From positions 1 through 52,359 of IMG/VR virus record IMGVR_UViG_3300027365_000018: a stretch of DNA of 52,359 bases; one strand, 5' to 3'. Positions 39,211-46,006 of the stretch are shown here, piece after piece (positions within the stretch are counted from its first letter, which is position 1; each line of letters begins with the position of its first letter). The notes below the pieces were generated by a model. The model searched no databases. It was given only the letters and a program-made list of their open reading frames with translations, and was not told where the DNA came from. The stretch comes from a virus (Duplodnaviria > Caudoviricetes). The position numbers and the translations under genes were made by a program.

Positions 39211-39534
39211 ATGAGCGAAGTGTTCATCCACGCCGACGACTCGCCCCATCATGCCAAGCCCGAGGACGCCATCCCGCGCTACCAGAGCCACAAGGTGGTC
39301 AGGGCGCTGAAGATCGGCGTGATCCTCGAGACCGACCTCGATAGCGGCATCATGGTATTCGAGCCTGAGGACCAGACGCTGGGAATAGAGCGTGTCGAGA
39401 CCCGCCCGGGCTGGCTGGATCGCTACGCCCCCGATCTTGGGGCCGATGATCTTGGTTACTGGGTCCAGTACGAAGATGGCTTCTCGTCCTGGTCGCCAAC
39501 CGAAGCATTCGAGAGCGGCTATAGCCGCATCTGA
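39211..39534 (+). CDS. Conserved phage hypothetical protein
   Basis: PRYQSHKVVRALKI..GYWVQYEDGFSSWSPTEAFESGY. Confidence 0.7.
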   Translation: MSEVFIHADDSPHHAKPEDAIPRYQSHKVVRALKIGVILETDLDSGIMVFEPEDQTLGIERVETRPGWLDRYAPDLGADDLGYWVQYEDGFSSWSPTEAFESGYSRI

Positions 39535-39657
39535 CCGAATCCCCGAGGGGATAGGGCCACGCCGTGAGGCGCCGCCCGCCTTTTCAACCCGCGGCACGCC
39601 GTGAGGCGCCCGCACCCTACAACGGAGACGCCGCCCGTGAGGGCCGCGTAGACGACC

Positions 39658-40239
39658 ATGGCACACCGATACGACTGGGAGGCGATCGAGCTCGACTACC
39701 GCACCGGCCGATACAGCCTCGCGCAACTGTCCGAACGCCACGGCCCCAACCGAGCCTCGATCAGCAAGAAGGCGACCCGGGAGGGCTGGGCCAAGGATCT
39801 GACCGCGCCGGTGGCGCAGCGGACCCGCGAGAAGCTCAGCCGGCCGGAATCCGCGCCGCTCGACCTGCCAGAATCTGACGTGATCGAGCAGGTGGCGAGC
39901 GAGAACGCCGACATTGCGCGTGGCCATCGTCGCCTGCTGGGCAACTACCGCAAGATTGCCGACCGGTTCATCACCCAGCTCGGCGACCAACTCGACCGCG
40001 GCAAGCGAGAAGTGCAGCTCGCCAACGGCGACGTCATGGAGATCGATCTCGACCTCGAGTACATCGGCAAGTGCATGGGCCACGGCACCCAGGCGCTGGA
40101 GCGGGTCATCAAGATGGAGCGTCAGAGCTACCGGCTGGATGCCGAGGAGGGCGACGAGCCGCCGGAGCGCAACCTGAGTGACGACGAGATCGAACAGCGC
40201 ATCGAGGCGCTGCAGCGGAAGGCGGGGCGGAATGCGTGA
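39658..40239 (+). CDS. terS: Terminase small subunit
   Basis: N-terminal HTH DWEAIE.DYR.G..S..I.KKA.REGW; overlaps the terL start. Confidence 0.8.
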   Translation: MAHRYDWEAIELDYRTGRYSLAQLSERHGPNRASISKKATREGWAKDLTAPVAQRTREKLSRPESAPLDLPESDVIEQVASENADIARGHRRLLGNYRKIADRFITQLGDQLDRGKREVQLANGDVMEIDLDLEYIGKCMGHGTQALERVIKMERQSYRLDAEEGDEPPERNLSDDEIEQRIEALQRKAGRNA

Positions 40240-41903
40240 CGCTCACCACCGCCGAGAAGCGCGCCTACCTGGCGCTGCTTGAAGAGCAGGAGCGCCGCCG
40301 CCGCTACAACCTGATCGACCAGCTATTCCCCGAAGACGGCACCCTCAGCCGCCACAACTACGCCAAGCACCTCGAGTTCTTCCGCGCCGGGGCTATCCAC
40401 AAGGAACGGCTGTTCATGGCCGGCAACCGTTGCGTCACGCCATGGACATTCATTGAAACGGCGTCTGGTTCGGCCCGCGCCGCAGAAGCGCTGTTCGGCT
40501 GTGCTGGTAATCTTCGGGCGTGGGCTGATGGATCTGAACGTGATGTTCGACCTGTAGACGCACACCTGGTGGGCATTGAGCCAGCGTTTCGCGTGGTTCT
40601 GGACAGCGGTCGGTTTTTCGATTGCTCCCGTAAGCACCGGGTATTGACCGACGAGGGGTGGCTTTCTCTCGACCAGTTAGTGTCGCGCGCAGATGGTCTG
40701 CATTGGTCGCATACAGCTGGAGGTTATCAGGCCAGTTGTGTCGCGGGTGGTTATCTCGATGATCGACCACTTCCTCCGTGGTCAGATAGCGCCCAAGGAC
40801 AACTTCCATCACCAAGCGGTGCTCGAACACATAGCCGCTTGGCGCTTTCGCGTGAGGATGCAGAGGCGCGAACACCTCGACATATCCGTGTTTGTCAACG
40901 CGGCGGCCACCCCGCCAGCTTTGATGACCGTCACCGTGTCGAGGCCCTGTCCGAGCCGTTTTCAGCTGCAGCGACCGACAGCGACGTTCTACCGCTGACC
41001 TGGACACACCGAGCGTTTCGGCAGCTTGCGCTTGCGTCAGATGCTCAACCTCAATCAGGTGGCGAAGCTCGACATCATCAAGCCGCTTCGCATGTAGACG
41101 GCCTGCCGGGTTCGCTATTCCACGTCGCCGCAGGTAGGCCTGCAGGGATGCCCGGGTCAGACCCAGAGAATCAGCGATCCGATAGGTCGGCTCGCCTGTT
41201 TCAATGCGTTGACGTATTTCCGGGAAGTGCTGGTCGATTGGGGATTTTCTACCCATCACGTATTCCTCGACTGGTAGGTGGAGAAACAATAGCGGCAATA
41301 GTTCCCATTGGTTTCCAGCCAATAATAGACGCTCATGTTCCCGGCCTCAACAACTACCGGGCAGCGGGCGTCTATCACCACAACTGCGGGAAAACCATCG
41401 CTGGCGGCGCTGAAATCGCCTACCACATGACTGGCCGCTACCCAGAGTGGTGGGAAGGCAGGCGGTTTGACCGCCCGATCAACGCCCTGGCCGCCGGGGA
41501 CACCAGCCAGACCACGCGCGACATCATCCAGAAGAAGCTGCTGGGAGGGCTGTGGGATACCGAGGAGTTCGGCACCGGCCTGATCCCCCGTGCGCTGCTG
41601 GGCAAGCCGACGCCTGCCCGGGGCGTGGCCAATCTCTACGAGGAAATCAGCGTAAAGCACGCCTCCGGCGGCTGGTCCCGGCTGATGCTTCGCAGCTACG
41701 ACCAGGGCCGGCGCATCTTCCAGGGCACCGAGCAGGACGTGGTGTGGCTGGACGAAGAAGTCCCGAAGGACGTCTATGACGAGGCGCTGATCCGCACCAT
41801 GACGACCCACGGCATCGTGATCATGACGTTCACGCCGCTCTCGGGCCTGACCGAGCTGGTGGTGTCGTTCCTCGAGTCGAAACACGAACAGGAGTCGGTA
41901 TGA
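40236..41903 (+). CDS. terL: Terminase large subunit, ATPase part (P22-like), containing an intein
   Basis: ERLFMAGNR|intein|CGKT Walker A, TGRYPEWWEGRRF, Walker B VWLDEE, MTFTP; 237 aa after splicing. Confidence 0.9.
   Translation: MTLTTAEKRAYLALLEEQERRRRYNLIDQLFPEDGTLSRHNYAKHLEFFRAGAIHKERLFMAGNRCVTPWTFIETASGSARAAEALFGCAGNLRAWADGSERDVRPVDAHLVGIEPAFRVVLDSGRFFDCSRKHRVLTDEGWLSLDQLVSRADGLHWSHTAGGYQASCVAGGYLDDRPLPPWSDSAQGQLPSPSGARTHSRLALSREDAEARTPRHIRVCQRGGHPASFDDRHRVEALSEPFSAAATDSDVLPLTWTHRAFRQLALASDAQPQSGGEARHHQAASHVDGLPGSLFHVAAGRPAGMPGSDPENQRSDRSARLFQCVDVFPGSAGRLGIFYPSRIPRLVGGETIAAIVPIGFQPIIDAHVPGLNNYRAAGVYHHNCGKTIAGGAEIAYHMTGRYPEWWEGRRFDRPINALAAGDTSQTTRDIIQKKLLGGLWDTEEFGTGLIPRALLGKPTPARGVANLYEEISVKHASGGWSRLMLRSYDQGRRIFQGTEQDVVWLDEEVPKDVYDEALIRTMTTHGIVIMTFTPLSGLTELVVSFLESKHEQESV
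40431..41384 (+). mobile_element. Intein 1 (318 aa) in the TerL Walker A motif
   Basis: Starts CVTPWT, block-B-like CSRKHRVLT, ends GVYHHN followed by Cys+1. Removing it restores AGNRCGKT. Confidence 0.9.
40450..41256 (-). CDS. HTH-HNH homing endonuclease encoded antisense within intein 1
   Basis: GAGGA RBS 7 nt before ATG at 41256; two HTH-like segments; WRGGR..GYV..HP.A..GYVFEHRLVME..LGRYL...EVVDHRD....HN...NL. Confidence 0.85.
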   Translation of the reverse strand: MGRKSPIDQHFPEIRQRIETGEPTYRIADSLGLTRASLQAYLRRRGIANPAGRLHAKRLDDVELRHLIEVEHLTQAQAAETLGVSRSAVERRCRSLQLKTARTGPRHGDGHQSWRGGRRVDKHGYVEVFAPLHPHAKAPSGYVFEHRLVMEVVLGRYLTTEEVVDHRDNHPRHNWPDNLQLYATNADHLRATLTGREKATPRRSIPGAYGSNRKTDRCPEPRETLAQCPPGVRLQVEHHVQIHQPTPEDYQHSRTALLRRGPNQTPFQ

Positions 41904-42187
41904 CCGCCCATCCCATCCCCGCCGATGTCGGCGCTGCGATCGCCGAAGGCCTGGCCGAGATCCAGCGCGACGCCAAGCGTGCAATCTCCCGCATCGAGAT
42001 GCCGCCGGCCTCTGCCGCCTACGTGGGCCGCACCACCAGCATGGCCAAGCGCCTCGCCGATACCGTGCGTGCCCGAGGCATCCAGTCCGGCACGCTGGCC
42101 CTGCGCATCGCCCGTCAGGTGGACCCGCACATCAGGCCCGGGCAGCGCATGGTGATCGCCGGGGCCGAGTTCACGGTGGCCGAATGA
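41900..42187 (+). CDS. Hypothetical 95-aa protein between the two terL halves
   Basis: ATGA overlaps with both flanking terL genes; AGGAG RBS. Confidence 0.65.
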   Translation: MTAHPIPADVGAAIAEGLAEIQRDAKRAISRIEMPPASAAYVGRTTSMAKRLADTVRARGIQSGTLALRIARQVDPHIRPGQRMVIAGAEFTVAE

Positions 42188-43869
42188 GCCGCTATGTCGT
42201 GCAAGCCGGTTGGCGAGACGCCCCACACCTCAGCCAGCAGGACATCGACGACATGAGCCGCTCGATCTCGCCGCATCAGCTCAAGGCGCGCATGGACGGC
42301 ACGCCCACCCTGGGCGCCGGGGCCATCTACCCGGTGCCGGAGGAGGACATCGTCGTCGAACCGTTCCAGATTCCCGAGTGGTGGCCGCGGCTGTATGGCC
42401 TCGACGTCGGCTGGAACAAGACCGCCGCCATCTGGGGCGCGCTGGACCGCGACACCGACACGCTCTACCTGAACAGCGAGCACTACCGGGGCCAGGCCGA
42501 GGCCGCCGTGCACGCCAAGGCAATAAGGATGCGCGGCGAGTGGATGCCCGGCGTCATCGACTCTGCCGCCCGGGGCCGCAGTCAGGTGGACGGCAAGAGC
42601 CTGTTTTCGCTGTACGAGGACGAGGGGCTGCACCTGCACAACGCCAACAAGGCCGTCGAGGCCGGGTTGATGGCGGTGCTCGAGCGGCTCAGTACCGGCC
42701 GGCTCAAGGTGTTCTCCACCCTGCAGCACTGGCTCGGCGAATACCGCCTGTACCGGCGCGACGAGAAGGGCCGCGTCGTGAAGGAAAACGACCACTGCCT
42801 GCACCCCGATACGCAAGTCATCACCCGGCAGGGGAGACAACGTATTTCTGACCTCGTTGGGTCAACTGGCGAGGTATTGACGCAGGGTGGGCGATGGACT
42901 TCGTATCGGAACTGCCGGATGACAGCGCGAAACGAGAAGGTCGTTACTGTGTCGTTCGAGGACGGGAGCCGGGTGACTTGCACGCCAGATCATCGCTTCT
43001 TGACGCCTGATGGGTGGGTGGAGGCGCGCGATATGGCTGGCCTGGAATGCTATAATGCAGTAACGCAAAGCATCCATGAGAGCCAGCCATGCAAGTCACC
43101 ATCATCTCCGACACCATCCAAGAGTTTGAAGGGCGGCGTTATTACCTGTGCGGCGCTTATTTCCAGAGCGATGGTGTCCGGCTACACCGCCAGGTATGGG
43201 AGCGCGCGAATGGAAAAGTGGTGCCGGAGGGTTTCCATGTACACCACAAGGATCATGACCGCAGCAACAACCAGCCGGGCAATCTCGAGCTGGTGTCAGC
43301 GTCTGACCACATGCGGCACCACCATGAAGGGCATGATCGGGGCGTTCCTGCAGAGGCAATCGAGGCTGCCAGGGCTTGGCATGGCAGTGACGCCGGGCGC
43401 GACTGGCATCGCCAGCATTACGAGCGAACCAAGGGCAAGCTCCACGTGCGCCGATCCTTCGTCTGTGAGCAGTGCGGCACCGAGTTCACGGCTCTGGATC
43501 GAGGCATCAACAGGTTCTGCTCCAATAGCTGCAAGACCAAATGGCGGAAAGAGGCGGGGCTGGATGACGAGGTTCGTCAGTGCGTTGAGTGCAAGGCGGA
43601 GTTCACGGCCAACAAGTATTCCCGCAAGCAAACATGCAGCCGCAAGTGCGGTGGTGCGCTGTCTGGGCGTAAGCGACGCCGGGAGGAGTGATGTCTACTG
43701 CCTGACGGTGCCTGAAACGGCCGCCTTTGCCGTGGAAGGCGGCGTGGTTGTTCACAACTGCATGGACGCCACCCGTTATCTGGTCATGGGGCTGCAGCAC
43801 GCCACCACGCGACCCATCGAACGCCATGCCACATCGGCCCGCCCGGGCGATCTGACGACAGGATACTGA
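42184..43869 (+). CDS. terL: Terminase large subunit, nuclease part, containing an intein
   Basis: GWRDAPHL..AR.DG.PTLG.GAIY, GLDVGWN, EYRLYRRDEKG.VVKENDH|intein|CMDATRY; 240 aa after splicing. Confidence 0.9.
   Translation: MSRYVVQAGWRDAPHLSQQDIDDMSRSISPHQLKARMDGTPTLGAGAIYPVPEEDIVVEPFQIPEWWPRLYGLDVGWNKTAAIWGALDRDTDTLYLNSEHYRGQAEAAVHAKAIRMRGEWMPGVIDSAARGRSQVDGKSLFSLYEDEGLHLHNANKAVEAGLMAVLERLSTGRLKVFSTLQHWLGEYRLYRRDEKGRVVKENDHCLHPDTQVITRQGRQRISDLVGSTGEVLTQGGRWTSYRNCRMTARNEKVVTVSFEDGSRVTCTPDHRFLTPDGWVEARDMAGLECYNAVTQSIHESQPCKSPSSPTPSKSLKGGVITCAALISRAMVSGYTARYGSARMEKWCRRVSMYTTRIMTAATTSRAISSWCQRLTTCGTTMKGMIGAFLQRQSRLPGLGMAVTPGATGIASITSEPRASSTCADPSSVSSAAPSSRLWIEASTGSAPIAARPNGGKRRGWMTRFVSALSARRSSRPTSIPASKHAAASAVVRCLGVSDAGRSDVYCLTVPETAAFAVEGGVVVHNCMDATRYLVMGLQHATTRPIERHATSARPGDLTTGY
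42796..43758 (+). mobile_element. Intein 2 (321 aa) in the TerL nuclease DH-xx-DA-x-RY motif
   Basis: Starts CLHPDTQV, block B CTPDHRFLT, block F DVYCLTV, ends VVVHN followed by Cys+1. Confidence 0.93.
43089..43691 (+). CDS. HNH homing endonuclease with zinc-ribbon repeats, in an alternate frame within intein 2
   Basis: LHRQVWE..G..PEGFHVHHKD.DRSNN...NLEL....H; CEQC..FCS..C and CVEC..CSRKC; offset +2 from the terL frame. Confidence 0.88.
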   Translation: MQVTIISDTIQEFEGRRYYLCGAYFQSDGVRLHRQVWERANGKVVPEGFHVHHKDHDRSNNQPGNLELVSASDHMRHHHEGHDRGVPAEAIEAARAWHGSDAGRDWHRQHYERTKGKLHVRRSFVCEQCGTEFTALDRGINRFCSNSCKTKWRKEAGLDDEVRQCVECKAEFTANKYSRKQTCSRKCGGALSGRKRRREE

Positions 43870-43870
43870 G

Positions 43871-46006
43871 ATGCACGACGACGCGACTGTCGAGATGACA
43901 GACGACATCGAGGCGCAGGAAGCCGAGCGCCAGGCGCTTGAGGAGAAGCTCTCCGGCCTCGGCGGCAAGCTTCAGAACCTCGCCCAGGAGCAGGTCGCCA
44001 AGCGGCAGATGGTCGAGCAGCGCTGGTTGGAGGATCTGCGCCAGTACCACGGCGAGTACACCGCCGACGAGAAGTCGCGGATGCAGGCCAACGGCAGCTC
44101 GCAGGTCTACGTCAACATCACCCGCAACAAGACCCGCGCCGGGCAGTCCCGCCTGGCCGACATGCTACTGCCCAACGATGACCGCAACTGGGGCATCAAG
44201 CCCACCCCCGAGCCGCAGATGTCCGCACTGGGCACGGATGACGACCCCGAGGAACAGCGCGAGAAGGCCGACGACGCCGCCCGGGGCATGCAGCGCGCCA
44301 TCGAGGACGATTTCACCGAGGCCCGCTACAACTCGAAGATGCGCGACATCATCGGCGACGTGGCGCAGCTCGGCACCGGCATCGTCAAGGGGCCGATCGT
44401 CGTCAACCGTCAGCGCCGCGCCTGGCGTCGCGATCCGGAATCCGGCTATCCGGTGCTGGAGATCGTTGACGAGTTCCGCGCCGGCCTCGAGCGTGTCGAT
44501 CCCTGGGACTTCTTCCCCGACATGAGCTCGGCCAGCATGGAAGAGGCCGAGTTCGTCTTCGAGCGCAAGCTGCTCAACAAGAAGCAGCTGCGCGAACTGG
44601 CCAACCTGCCCGGCGTGATCGACGGTCAGCTTCGCAAGGTCCTCGAGATGGACAGCGAGGGCCACAAGATCAGCCAGGATTACCGCGACCAGATCCGCGC
44701 CATCACCGGCGTGGACACCGTCACCAACAAGGGGCGCTGGGAGCTGTGGGAATACTGGGGCCCGCTCGACAAGGACGAGCTGCGCGCCTGTGGCTGCGAG
44801 GTCGAGGACGACCCGCTGACCGAGTACAACGGCTGCGTGCTGTTCGTCGGCGAGCATGTCATCAAAGCGGCGATCAACCCGCTGGACAGCGGCGATCTGC
44901 CGTACAGCGTGTCGAACTGGGAGGAGGACAACTCCTCGATCTTCGGCTTCGGCATCCCGTACCTGATGCGCGACCCGCAGAAGGTGGCGGCCAGCGCCTG
45001 GCGGATGATCATGGACAACGCCGGGCTGACCGCCGGGCCCCAGGTCGTGGTCAACCGCAAGGCTGTGAAGCCGGTTGACGGCGACTGGAGGCTGTCACCG
45101 CGCAAGGTGTGGGAATACACCGGCGACGGTCCCATCAACGGCGCCTTCTACGCCTACAACATCACCTCGAACCAGGGCGATCTGTCCAGCATCTTCCAGG
45201 CCGCCCAGCAGCTCGCCGACACCCAGACCAACCTGCCGATCATCCTCCAGGGCGAAGGCGTCAGCGGCGGCCCCGGCTCGCAGACCGCGACCGGCATGCA
45301 GATGCTGATGAACAACTCCAACATCGTGCTGCGCAGCGCGGTGAAGAGCTTCGACGACGGCATCACCGAGCCGCTCGTGCGCCGGTTCTACGACTGGCAC
45401 ATGGCCTATGACGAGAACGACGAGCACAAGGGCGATTTTAGCGTCGTCGCCCGCGGCTCCAGCGTGCTGATCGCCCGGCAGGAACAGCAGGACAAGCTGC
45501 TCGCCCTGGCCCAGGTCGCCGCCAGCAATCCCGAGTTCGCCCGCTCCACCGAGTGGCAGGGCCTGTACCGCGAAATCGTGCGCTCGATGTCCGTGCCCGC
45601 CGAGAACGTACTCAAGGACGAAGAGACGGTCGAGCAGGAAGCCGAGCAGCAGGGCCAGCAGATGCCACCGGAACTGCAGCTCAAGATGGCCGAGCAGCAG
45701 CTCAAGCAAGAGCAGTTCCAGTTCGAGCAGCAGAAGACCCAGTGGGAATTCCAGCTCAAGCAGCGGGAGCAGCAGTTCGACCAGCAGTACAAGGCCGCCG
45801 AGCTCGAGCAGGAGCGCGAGATCAAGCTGGCCGACCTGGCCCTCAAGCGCGAGATGACCCTCGAGCAGCTCAAGGTCAAGCTCGGCATCGAGACGGCCAA
45901 TATCCAGACCGAGCGCGAGACCACCGCCGCCAACCTGCTCGACAGCCAGAACCGCCGGCAGGCGAAGGAACAGAACATGGGCATGGGGTACGACAGCTAT
46001 GGCTGA
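43871..46006 (+). CDS. Portal protein
   Basis: 711 aa directly after terL; VYVNITRNK, VDPWDFFPD, FGFGIP.LMRD.Q, TATG..ML; C-terminal coiled coil. Confidence 0.88.
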   Translation: MHDDATVEMTDDIEAQEAERQALEEKLSGLGGKLQNLAQEQVAKRQMVEQRWLEDLRQYHGEYTADEKSRMQANGSSQVYVNITRNKTRAGQSRLADMLLPNDDRNWGIKPTPEPQMSALGTDDDPEEQREKADDAARGMQRAIEDDFTEARYNSKMRDIIGDVAQLGTGIVKGPIVVNRQRRAWRRDPESGYPVLEIVDEFRAGLERVDPWDFFPDMSSASMEEAEFVFERKLLNKKQLRELANLPGVIDGQLRKVLEMDSEGHKISQDYRDQIRAITGVDTVTNKGRWELWEYWGPLDKDELRACGCEVEDDPLTEYNGCVLFVGEHVIKAAINPLDSGDLPYSVSNWEEDNSSIFGFGIPYLMRDPQKVAASAWRMIMDNAGLTAGPQVVVNRKAVKPVDGDWRLSPRKVWEYTGDGPINGAFYAYNITSNQGDLSSIFQAAQQLADTQTNLPIILQGEGVSGGPGSQTATGMQMLMNNSNIVLRSAVKSFDDGITEPLVRRFYDWHMAYDENDEHKGDFSVVARGSSVLIARQEQQDKLLALAQVAASNPEFARSTEWQGLYREIVRSMSVPAENVLKDEETVEQEAEQQGQQMPPELQLKMAEQQLKQEQFQFEQQKTQWEFQLKQREQQFDQQYKAAELEQEREIKLADLALKREMTLEQLKVKLGIETANIQTERETTAANLLDSQNRRQAKEQNMGMGYDSYG

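What the first reader, a model, noticed from the sequence alone, without database searches (positions are those of the whole stretch)
42796..43758. Second intein with an HNH endonuclease overprinted in a different sense frame
A 321-aa intein with clear blocks A, B, F and G has an S/T/A/R-rich middle with no recognisable domain. The +2 frame (43089-43691) encodes a complete 200-aa HNH protein with two CxxC..CS..C zinc-ribbon repeats, its own ATG, and a stop at the start of block F. Together with intein 1, this genome shows two independent solutions (antisense and frame-shifted) to nesting a free-standing HNH gene inside a mini-intein. This may be an intermediate in how inteins acquire homing endonucleases.
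Basis: partly seen in the sequence, partly recalled or inferred. Interest (0 to 1): 0.78.

Follow-up and report, generated by a model that had tools for sequence, protein, structure and literature searches.

The report
Terminase intein hiding out-of-frame HNH gene
A phage DNA-packaging gene carries a self-splicing protein insert (an intein), and a complete, selected HNH homing-nuclease gene is written inside it in a second reading frame; this is real and widespread, but the arrangement is already in print.

Summary
Window 42796-43758 is a 321-aa class-1 intein in the nuclease motif of the terminase large subunit (NDH|C...HN|CMDATRY). Its middle is overprinted by a 200-aa HNH_3 and zinc-ribbon endonuclease ORF (43089-43691) in the +2 frame.

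It is not an assembly error. Contigs of four sequencing runs show no indels. A 95%-identical variant from another study carries 36 listed substitutions in the ORF: 26 fall at HNH third codon positions, 24 are synonymous for HNH and only 7 for the intein frame.

The same two-frame layout occurs in 14 other loci. These include annotated TerL genes of Acinetobacter, Tetrasphaera, Clostridium and Rhodobacteraceae phages. All 15 have zero stops in the host frame, against 1-14 stops in 14 non-nested homologues. The frame-0 middle has no predicted fold (pLDDT <50). The HNH frame folds at pLDDT 89 and resembles I-HmuI.

Fifty-six close TerL relatives lack both the intein and the HNH gene.

The kind is known. 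Brucellaphage TerL (Virol J 2015) and 2025-2026 preprints describe out-of-frame or antisense endonucleases in inteins. This scan has noted the layout before on other DNA (135 earlier findings hold the search words). Verdict: new member of a known kind. It looks like a stable state rather than a passing intermediate.

The parts
42184..42795 (+). N-extein of the TerL C-terminal (nuclease) ORF, ending ...KENDH
   Evidence: 56 relatives match it to residue 204 at 48-96% identity and continue directly with LMDAxRY.
42796..43758 (+). Class-1 intein, 321 aa (C1 ... HN), read in the TerL frame
   Evidence: Pfam Intein_splicing. NCBIfam intein N-terminal and C-terminal models above their cutoffs. The AF2 model matches mini-inteins by Foldseek with prob 1.00.
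42796..43088 (+). N-terminal splicing domain (block A CLHPDT, block B CTPDH)
   Evidence: pLDDT 87-96 for residues 1-90. C1 and H66 are invariant in 9 inteins. The 3 listed X3 substitutions here are all synonymous in this frame.
43077..43079 (+). TGA that closes the HNH frame 9 nt upstream of its ATG
   Evidence: It leaves no room for a long frameshift fusion.
43078..43082 (+). Weak Shine-Dalgarno-like GAGAG, 6 nt before the HNH ATG
   Evidence: Read from the sequence. Stronger SD-like motifs precede the nested HNH start in L004, L006, L073/L075 and L078. The function is inferred.
43089..43691 (+). HNH_3 and double zinc-ribbon endonuclease ORF, 200 aa, +2 frame relative to TerL
   Evidence: Pfam HNH_3 3e-17. 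PHROG 15471 1.4e-54. AF2 mean pLDDT 89.3. I-HmuI is the top structural match, Z 7.2. Purifying selection acts on this frame.
43090..43644 (+). Frame-0 'passenger' linker of the intein (S/T/A/R-rich, no fold), kept free of stops
   Evidence: pLDDT <50 for residues 91-283. No Pfam or PHROG match. 29 of 36 listed X3 substitutions are non-synonymous in this frame, and none makes a stop.
43645..43758 (+). C-terminal splicing region (blocks F and G, DVYCLTV...VVVHN). About 47 nt overlap the 3' end of the HNH ORF.
   Evidence: pLDDT 69-96 from residue about 284. V300, Y301 and N321 are invariant. NCBIfam intein_Cterm matches residues 299-321.
43759..43869 (+). C-extein CMDATRYLV... (+1 Cys replaces the Leu of intein-less alleles)
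40431..41384 (+). Intein 1 in the TerL Walker A loop (AGNR|C...HHN|CGKT). Context for the finding, not its subject.
   Evidence: Boundaries. The intein-less relative L009 reads AGNRVGKT. Only weak NCBIfam hits to intein-bearing proteins. No Pfam intein hit at E<=0.01.
40450..41322 (-). Antisense HTH-HNH ORF (290 aa) inside intein 1
   Evidence: PHROG HNH endonuclease families, best 9.8e-21. Pfam HNH_3 only 0.0012, below cutoff. 32% identity to P0002 residues 30-94, E 5.7e-5.

Best explanation
The TerL nuclease half is translated in frame 0 as a 561-aa precursor. Residues 1-~90 and ~284-321 of the insert fold into a HINT (mini-intein) domain. This domain excises itself together with a ~190-residue unstructured linker and joins ...KENDH to CMDATRY..., which restores the nuclease motif.

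The DNA that encodes the linker is really a gene in the +2 frame: a 200-aa I-HmuI-like HNH_3 endonuclease with two zinc ribbons. It is translated on its own from ATG 43089 on the same late mRNA. Its likely role is that of a homing endonuclease. It would cut or nick intein-less TerL alleles of co-infecting relatives at the conserved DH|LMDAxRY coding sequence, so that repair copies the intein and the gene together.

Selection acts on the HNH frame. The intein frame across the overlap only has to stay free of stops.

Shown: the anatomy, the selection pattern, the recurrence, the sporadic distribution and the predicted folds. Inferred: splicing, internal initiation, cleavage and homing. The confidence given is for the whole statement; the two-frame anatomy alone I put at about 0.95.
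For: Anatomy.

Not an error: read laying found no inserted or deleted letters in contigs of 4 runs (table 4). Run X2 (another study) holds four contigs that are 100% identical within the intein. Run X3 (another study) holds a 932-nt contig over 42874-43804 with 48 substitutions and 0 gaps.

Selection on the HNH frame: 39 of the 48 X3 differences are listed. Of the 36 inside the HNH ORF, 7/3/26 fall at HNH codon positions 1/2/3. 24 are synonymous for HNH and 7 for the intein frame (chi-square p 3e-6). The 3 listed in the N-terminal splicing domain are all synonymous in the intein frame. In 14 of 14 homologue pairs, differences peak at HNH position 3, and HNH identity (0.40-0.84) exceeds host-frame identity (0.16-0.73). 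Two of those pairs include L090, whose host frame differs, so the host-frame figure is not meaningful for them.

Recurrence: a host frame at HNH+1 is fully open across the HNH homologue in the window, L002, L003, L004, L102, L006, L070, L071, L073, L075, L076, L077, L078, L091 and L095. L090 uses the other frame. Stops in the host frame number 0 in 15 of 15 nested loci and 1-14 in 14 of 14 non-nested loci.

Host ORFs are TerL plus intein. Intein_splicing scores above cutoff in L070, L075, L076, L091 and L095, below cutoff in L071, L077 and L090, and gives no hit in L078.

Folds: frame 0 has pLDDT <50 over residues 91-283 and 87-96 in the flanks, with mini-inteins as matches at prob 1.00. The HNH model has mean pLDDT 89.3. 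Its top match is I-HmuI, Z 7.2, rmsd 3.1 over 76 residues, with the next row at 4.6. HNH residues H52, H53, H74 and the four cysteines are invariant.

Mobility: 56 relatives carry the N-extein followed directly by the C-extein, and none of L009-L069 has an HNH hit within about 4 kb. An intein-less allele (DH|LMDALRY) stands at depth 19 in run X2 beside the intein-bearing one. Only 32 of 50,697 phage records match the HNH at E<=1e-5.

Own start: a TGA lies 9 nt upstream of the ATG, and SD-like motifs precede several nested homologues.
Against: - No expression, splicing or cleavage data exist for this uncultured phage.
- The SD-like motif before ATG 43089 is weak (GAGAG), and L071 and L095 have none.
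- For the window alone, a synonymous shuffle leaves frame 0 stop-free in 6.4% of trials. The single-locus statistic is therefore weak, and the case rests on recurrence and substitutions.
- Foldseek alone gave no significant PDB match for the HNH model, and phmmer found no solved relative.
- A VIA-align Z of 7.2 is within the range the tool calls 'middling'.
- The runs are contigs, not raw reads, and X1 may be the source sample.
- Free-standing homologues sit next to terminase genes. That position would also fit a packaging role.
Confidence: 0.8

Rival explanations
1. Assembly or sequencing artefact: two compensating indels put a normal in-frame HNH intein out of frame.
For: The window is a metagenome-assembled viral contig. 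In-frame HNH_3 inteins do exist, for example in the ribonucleotide reductase of L080.
Against: No indels appear in contigs of 4 runs from 3-4 studies. 14 other loci, several from isolated and annotated phages, show the same frame relation. The HNH frame is closed by a TGA 9 nt before its ATG and by its own stop. Substitutions follow the HNH frame only inside the ORF and the intein frame outside it.
Confidence: 0.02
2. The HNH ORF is a decaying relic. The intein is now inherited vertically as a mini-intein with a junk linker, and the ORF is open by chance.
For: High GC (about 0.60) makes long open frames common. The synonymous shuffle gives P=0.064 for an open frame 0 in the window. No expression data exist.
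Against: 24 of 36 listed substitutions are synonymous in the HNH frame. Catalytic and zinc residues are invariant across 14 homologues. The model has pLDDT 89. The ORF is full length against PHROG 15471. AT-rich relatives keep both frames open (L002 P=0.0002, L004 P=0.0004).
Confidence: 0.05
3. The HNH protein is a packaging cofactor of terminase (as proposed for HK97-type phages; that work is recalled from memory and cited within PMC4422536). On this reading it is not a homing endonuclease, and nesting merely keeps it next to TerL.
For: Free-standing homologues lie between TerL and portal (PAE1, SN1, CL2, EauM-23, Poludnitsa, Shemara) or before terS (BP10). The brucellaphage paper speculates on such a link (passages read).
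Against: 56 close TerL relatives lack it within about 4 kb. It matches only 32 of 50,697 phage records at E<=1e-5. It belongs to Pfam HNH_3 and resembles the intron homing enzyme I-HmuI. It travels with a mobile intein found at three neighbouring sites of one motif.
Confidence: 0.08
4. The HNH is made by programmed frameshifting from the intein frame, giving a TerL-N/IntN/HNH fusion, and not by internal initiation.
For: The SD-like motif in the window is weak. L003 and L077 have longer open HNH-frame extensions upstream.
Against: In the window only 9 nt (GAGCCAGCC) lie between the upstream TGA and the ATG, and I see no slippery run by eye. Most homologues have a stop 6-75 nt upstream of a start codon. 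One relative uses the other frame offset (L090).
Confidence: 0.03

Closest known systems
Brucella phage Tb/Pr TerL intein with an out-of-frame HNH gene (Virol J 2015, PMC4422536, passages read; GenBank NC_019446)
   Same: TerL is annotated 'intein present', with a separate same-strand HNH CDS nested inside it in another frame. [quoted passage not shown] Pfam finds Intein_splicing in that TerL.
   Different: The HNH family differs: Pfam HNH PF01844 with the zinc ribbons N-terminal. It shares only motif-level similarity with the window's protein (E 4e-4 over 45 residues). The frame offset is +1 and not +2. The intein sits in the middle of TerL, not in the C-terminal nuclease motif.
Non-canonical actinobacteriophage inteins (Gosselin, Arsenault & Gogarten, bioRxiv 10.1101/2025.01.02.630785; abstract, sections 8 and 15 and passages read)
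   Same: An endonuclease is encoded between the splicing blocks in 'reading frame 3 relative to the intein', TerL is among the hosts, the in-frame translation has no fold, and free-standing relatives exist. The proposed origin is invasion of a mini-intein by a free-standing endonuclease gene. Antisense cases are also described.
   Different: Their same-strand case is endonuclease VII-like (IPR004211). They list HNH only as in-frame. Here the enzyme is HNH_3 with zinc ribbons, in phages outside PhagesDB. Their supplements are closed, so I could not check for overlap.
ShiLan-domain hidden HNH in phage methylases (Genes 2025, PMC11855218; abstract, discussion and passages read)
   Same: A 195-aa HNH with flanking zinc fingers is written in the third frame of a host gene whose own frame stays free of stops.
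   Different: No intein is present, so the insert is thought to remain in the methylase.
Fractured genes / split inteins with a free-standing endonuclease between the halves (Dassa et al. 2009, PMC2677866; search listing and abstract start only)
   Same: An endonuclease gene sits between the N-terminal and C-terminal splicing parts. Homologues of this HNH show exactly that layout in Lactobacillus phage CL2, Brochothrix phage BL3 and Vibrio phages.
   Different: In the window the host frame is continuous, so the intein is contiguous (cis-splicing).
I-HmuI (PDB 1u3e), HNH homing endonuclease of a Bacillus phage group I intron
   Same: It is the best structural match of the HNH model: Z 7.2, rmsd 3.1 over 76 residues, 21% identity.
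   Different: I-HmuI is intron-encoded and lacks the two C-terminal zinc ribbons. No sequence-level match was found.

Membership tests
Class-1 intein (HINT splicing domain) | Cys/Ser at position 1, block B TxxH, terminal (H)N, and a nucleophile at +1 | tested here: met
   C1, CTPDH (H66), VVVHN and +1 Cys are present. C1, H66 and N321 are invariant in 9 aligned inteins.
Class-1 intein (HINT splicing domain) | Profile match above the curated cutoff | tested here: met
   Pfam Intein_splicing 38.0 bits against 35.8. TIGR01445 35.9 bits against 24.5, and TIGR01443 21.8 bits against 15.6.
Class-1 intein (HINT splicing domain) | HINT fold | tested here: met
   The AF2 flanks have pLDDT 87-96. Foldseek matches mini-inteins at prob 1.00, with NpuDnaB at TMt 0.79.
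Class-1 intein (HINT splicing domain) | Inserted in a conserved site, with intein-less alleles existing | tested here: met
   56 relatives read DH|LMDAxRY without an insert.
Class-1 intein (HINT splicing domain) | Protein splicing activity | not testable with these tools
   No experiment was possible.
HNH_3 / PHROG 15471 homing-type endonuclease | Profile match above cutoff, at full length | tested here: met
   HNH_3 62.4 bits against 24.8. PHROG 15471 E 1.4e-54, residues 1-198 on profile positions 1-175 of 183.
HNH_3 / PHROG 15471 homing-type endonuclease | Catalytic His/Asn/His and zinc ligands conserved | tested here: met
   H52, H53, D55, H74, C126, C129, C144 and C148 are invariant. N61, N65 and H78 are at least 90% conserved.
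HNH_3 / PHROG 15471 homing-type endonuclease | Beta-beta-alpha-metal fold like a known homing HNH | tested here: inconclusive
   VIA-align puts I-HmuI on top at Z 7.2, with the next row at 4.6. Foldseek gives E 0.37 for the same entry. A Z under 8 is 'middling' by the tool's own note.
HNH_3 / PHROG 15471 homing-type endonuclease | Site-specific cleavage of the insert-less allele, and homing | not testable with these tools
   Only the sporadic distribution supports it.
Non-canonical intein with a same-strand out-of-frame endonuclease | Endonuclease ORF between the splicing blocks, in another frame, with the host frame free of stops | tested here: met
   Also 15 of 15 nested loci against 14 of 14 non-nested loci.
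Non-canonical intein with a same-strand out-of-frame endonuclease | Selection on the endonuclease frame, not on the host frame, across the overlap | tested here: met
Non-canonical intein with a same-strand out-of-frame endonuclease | In-frame translation of the overlap has no fold or domain | tested here: met
   pLDDT <50 over residues 91-283. No Pfam or PHROG match.
Fractured gene / split intein | Host gene broken into separate ORFs at the intein | tested here: not met
   Frame 0 is continuous from 42184 to 43869.
Terminase-associated packaging HNH | Conserved in all related phages as an essential partner of terminase | tested here: not met
   No HNH hit in any of the 61 TerL-relative loci L009-L069 within about 4 kb; 56 of them carry the full N-extein to residue 204. 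Genes farther away were not searched.

The most novel reading that the evidence does not exclude
One HNH_3/zinc-ribbon endonuclease family repeatedly moves between three positions. It can be a free-standing gene at the TerL-portal junction. It can be an overprinted gene inside a contiguous TerL intein, nearly always at +2. It can be a gene between split-intein halves (CL2, BL3, Vibrio phages).

On this reading the overprinted form is a stable end state found across phages of several bacterial phyla, not a short-lived intermediate. Its frame preference follows from the genetic code. The host frame at HNH+1 carries few stops (mean 0.85-5.2 in synonymous shuffles) and the other frame many (8.4-35.7). 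An invading gene would therefore survive mainly in that register.

The closest pair of composites (window and L070) sit 4 codons apart in the same motif. This suggests that the unit can re-target neighbouring sites.
Probability: 0.45. Interest if true: 0.5.

Novelty: new member of a known kind. Interest (0 to 1): 0.3.

Why it matters
The finding adds a well-supported case to a class of 'non-canonical' inteins that most gene callers miss. Callers annotate only the long TerL ORF, or they split TerL wrongly.

The family around this case offers, in one set of homologues, every stage of the 'endonuclease invades a mini-intein' model: free-standing, overprinted in either frame, split, and in-frame in another host gene. 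That could make the origin of intein homing domains and of natural split inteins testable.

There is practical value too. It gives a rule for annotation: look for a second frame inside intein linkers. It also points to possible new split-intein and nicking-endonuclease reagents.

For this window alone, the result is confirmatory rather than new.

Tried and rejected
Steps that led nowhere or added little:
- Megablast of the whole TerL region against phages found no match.
- Scans with the HNH protein found no relative closer than about 52% identity in viral, metagenome or genome contigs. Within-family selection therefore had to come from L073/L075 and from run X3.
- phmmer against PDB sequences gave 0 hits.
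- Foldseek of the HNH model against PDB gave no match at E<=0.001.
- An Rfam scan of 39500-44500 at E<=1 gave 0 matches. This gives no support for an intron, either in the gap between the two TerL ORFs or around the HNH gene.
- The HNH tree of 28 rows is poorly resolved, with 5 of 25 inner branches starred. It shows only that at least 3 changes of the nested state are forced. The labels are not clustered more than in shuffles. I draw no donor or order of events from it.
- L079/L089, which first looked like an antisense nested copy, has no open host frame across the HNH. It is a split-like or truncated locus, not an antisense overprint.
- No RNA holder was listed by the look-up of sequencing runs, so nothing can be said about expression.
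- Two literature searches returned nothing: 'intein, overlapping, homing endonuclease, alternative reading frame' and 'intein, free-standing, different reading frame'.
- I did not run the big protein searches (search for homologous proteins, the search of protein representatives, the atlas) or complex prediction. Gene callers rarely call nested ORFs, and no binding claim is made.
- Supplements of the 2025 preprint are closed. I could not see whether its tables already list HNH_3 out-of-frame cases.
Full report
**What is there**

The window is a 52,359-base viral contig, estimated 68% complete. Its terminase large subunit is written as two ORFs. ORF 40236-41903 matches Terminase_6N. ORF 42184-43869 is the nuclease half.

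The second ORF is open for 561 codons. Residues 205-525 (window 42796-43758) start CLHPDTQV, contain CTPDH, end DVYCLTV...VVVHN and are followed by CMDATRY. This stretch matches Pfam Intein_splicing at 38 bits against a cutoff of 35.8. NCBIfam intein_Nterm scores 35.9 bits and intein_Cterm 21.8 bits, both above their cutoffs.

The +2 frame holds an ORF of 200 codons, 43089-43691. It matches Pfam HNH_3 at E 3e-17. It also matches PHROG 15471, 'HNH endonuclease', at E 1.4e-54 over its whole length. The protein carries two CxxC...CSxxC zinc ribbons. A TGA closes this frame 9 nt before its ATG, and frame 0 has no stop between 43000 and 43760.

The frame-0 translation of the overlap is 51% S+T+A+R. 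It matches no Pfam family and no PHROG family.

**Is it an error?**

I found ten public runs that hold part of the stretch and laid four of them. No inserted or deleted letter was reported in any.

- X1 may be the source sample. It covers the whole stretch at depth about 52 with no difference.
- X2, from another study, holds four contigs of 151-157 nt that are identical to the intein and HNH region.
- X3, from another study, holds a 932-nt contig over 42874-43804 with 48 substitutions and no gap.

These are contigs, not raw reads. They are, however, independent assemblies.

**Which frame is selected?**

Thirty-nine of the 48 X3 differences are listed by the tool, and 36 of them lie in the HNH ORF. 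They fall 7/3/26 at HNH codon positions 1/2/3. Twenty-four are synonymous for HNH and only 7 for the intein frame. None makes a stop (chi-square p 3e-6). The three listed differences in the N-terminal splicing domain are all synonymous in the intein frame.

So selection switches frame at the ORF boundary. Among homologues the same holds. In 14 of 14 pairs the differences peak at HNH position 3, and HNH identity (0.40-0.84) exceeds host-frame identity (0.16-0.73). Two of those pairs involve L090, whose host frame differs, so the host-frame figure is not meaningful for them.

**Recurrence**

A tblastn search with the HNH protein found 32 of 50,697 phage records at E<=1e-5. Scans of viral, metagenome and genome contigs added further loci.

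The frame one base after the HNH frame is fully open across the HNH homologue in these loci:
- the window;
- Acinetobacter phage Highwayman (L002);
- Tetrasphaera phage TJE1 (L003);
- Clostridium phages phiCDHM19 and phiCD119 (L004, L102);
- Rhodobacteraceae phage LS06 (L006);
- L070, L071, L073, L075, L076, L077, L078, L091 and L095.

Several further loci are duplicates of these: L081=L071, L088=L077, and L082/83/85/87 have the same HNH region as L075. L090 is nested in the other register.

Stops in the host frame number 0 in 15 of 15 nested loci (window included) and 0 in L090's own host frame. They number 1-14 in 14 of 14 non-nested homologues.

Synonymous shuffles leave the host frame open in 6.4% of trials for the window. 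The figure is 0.02% for L002, 0.04% for L004 and 0.18% for L070. This test is conservative because the codon pool is already purged of stop-prone codons.

The host ORFs are TerL plus an intein. Intein_splicing scores above cutoff in 5 of 9 nested host ORFs tested and below cutoff in 3. It gives no hit in L078, where the motifs are visible only in the alignment.

**Folds**

With a 9-row alignment, the intein model has pLDDT 87-96 for residues 1-90 and about 284-321, and below 50 for residues 91-283. Foldseek matches it to mini-inteins at probability 1.00.

With a 14-row alignment, the HNH frame of the same DNA folds at mean pLDDT 89.3. Foldseek gave no significant match for it. VIA-align against 48,161 chains puts the homing endonuclease I-HmuI first, at Z 7.2 and rmsd 3.1 over 76 residues, with the next row at 4.6.

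**Mobility**

Fifty-six TerL relatives (48-96% identical in the N-extein) run straight from ...DH into LMDAxRY. None of the 61 loci L009-L069 has an HNH hit within the roughly 4 kb fetched. Run X2 holds such an intein-less allele at depth 19 beside the intein-bearing sequence at depth 2-3.

Related composites sit at three neighbouring places in the same motif. Some sit after DH (window, L090, L071, L075, L006). Some sit after DHx (L003, L077, L078, L095). Some sit after DHxxDx (L070, L002, L076, L091). The window's closest composite, L070 (HNH 52% identical, N-terminal splicing domain 50%), lies 4 codons away.

Free-standing homologues lie between TerL and portal or before terS. A tree of 28 HNH proteins is poorly resolved. 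It does pair a nested with a free copy (L002 with L101, support 96/93) and a +2 with a +1 copy (L095 with L090, support 96/91). This forces at least 3 changes of state.

**How it most likely works**

Frame 0 is translated as a precursor. The HINT domain forms from the two ends of the insert and splices out, taking the unstructured linker with it. The HNH protein is made separately from ATG 43089, with a weak GAGAG 6 nt upstream. Several relatives have clear AGGAG-type motifs at the equivalent place. The protein acts as the homing nuclease of the composite.

The near-constant register has a simple reading. The frame at HNH+1 carries few stops by the nature of the code: a mean of 0.85-5.2 in shuffles, against 8.4-35.7 in the other frame. 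Splicing, internal initiation and cleavage are all inferred.

**What is known already**

[quoted passage not shown] The GenBank record annotates both genes. That HNH belongs to another Pfam family, sits at offset +1 and occupies another site of TerL.
- Gosselin et al. (bioRxiv 2025; abstract, sections 8 and 15 and passages read) describe antisense LAGLIDADG and VSR-like endonucleases in actinophage inteins. They also describe a 'frame 3' endonuclease VII-like one, with TerL among the hosts. They propose invasion of mini-inteins by free-standing endonuclease genes.
- Arsenault et al. (PMC11855218; abstract, discussion and passages read) describe a third-frame HNH in methylases.
- Phillips et al. 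(bioRxiv 2026; abstract and passages read) describe the cyanobacterial dnaX case.
- The scan itself holds 135 earlier findings containing the words I searched (intein, HNH, out-of-frame, overprinted, terminase). The 8 it showed me describe this or the antisense layout on other DNA.

**Verdict**

The finding is real, selected and widespread, but it is a new member of a known kind. What is particular to this window is threefold. It has an antisense and a +2 overprinted HNH intein in one TerL. The TerL is itself written as two ORFs. And an independent metagenomic variant shows the selection pattern directly.

The 'intermediate' reading is not supported as such. The state persists across deep divergence, so it looks stable.

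Noticed in passing
window 40236-43869; L009 3077-4723: TerL is written as two ORFs: an ATPase part ending at 41903 and a nuclease part starting at 42184. A 95-codon ORF (41900-42187) lies between them, overlapping both by ATGA. It matches no Pfam or PHROG family. The 86%-identical relative L009 is split at the same place, with a shorter spacer of about 213 nt. Rhodobacteraceae phage LS06 is also annotated with two TerL pieces and a small ORF between them. Rfam gave no match (so no intron family) at E<=1.
   Followed up: partly
window 40431-41384 (+) and 40450-41322 (-): A second intein sits in the Walker A loop (AGNR|C...HHN|CGKT; the intein-less relative reads AGNRVGKT). Its middle is antisense to a 290-aa HTH-HNH ORF (PHROG HNH families, best E 9.8e-21). 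Pfam did not detect the splicing domain at E<=0.01.
   Followed up: partly
L098 (Lactobacillus phage CL2, NC_028835) 473-2774: TerL appears fractured at the same DH|C...HN|CMDATRY site into three ORFs: N-extein plus IntN (473-1954), an HNH ORF 46% identical to the window's (1967-2590), and an unannotated 94-codon ORF with IntC plus C-extein (2490-2774). This is a candidate natural split intein. Brochothrix phage BL3 (L103) and Vibrio phage 1.245.O (L005) look similar. BL3 has only a remnant of the HNH.
   Followed up: partly
L090 1-1161: One relative carries the same intein type at the same site, but its HNH gene is in the other register (host frame = HNH+2). That frame has 0 stops where relatives have 5-36.
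   Followed up: partly
L080 562-5058: A class II ribonucleotide reductase carries an ordinary in-frame HNH_3 intein (Pfam Intein_splicing 2.6e-18, HNH_3 5.2e-12). This HNH type therefore also exists fused in frame.
   Followed up: no
L071 221-3745: A 1175-codon TerL ORF carries two inserts: one with a weak LAGLIDADG_3 match and one with the overprinted HNH.
   Followed up: no
window 43076-43108 (run X1, tables 7-8): In run X1, short contigs (33-58 nt, depth 52-110) share the 30-33 letters around the HNH start codon. They then run on both sides into the same unlike 27-28 letters, which do not occur in the window. This is unexplained. It may be a branch or loop of the assembly graph.
   Followed up: partly
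L102 (Clostridium phage phiCD119, NC_007917) 201-2595: TerL is annotated as three separate genes (ter1, ter2 and a 'hypothetical protein'). The last is the frame-0 reading of the HNH region plus IntC. The near-identical phiCDHM19 has one 799-codon TerL ORF. This looks like a mis-annotation or old sequencing errors.
   Followed up: no
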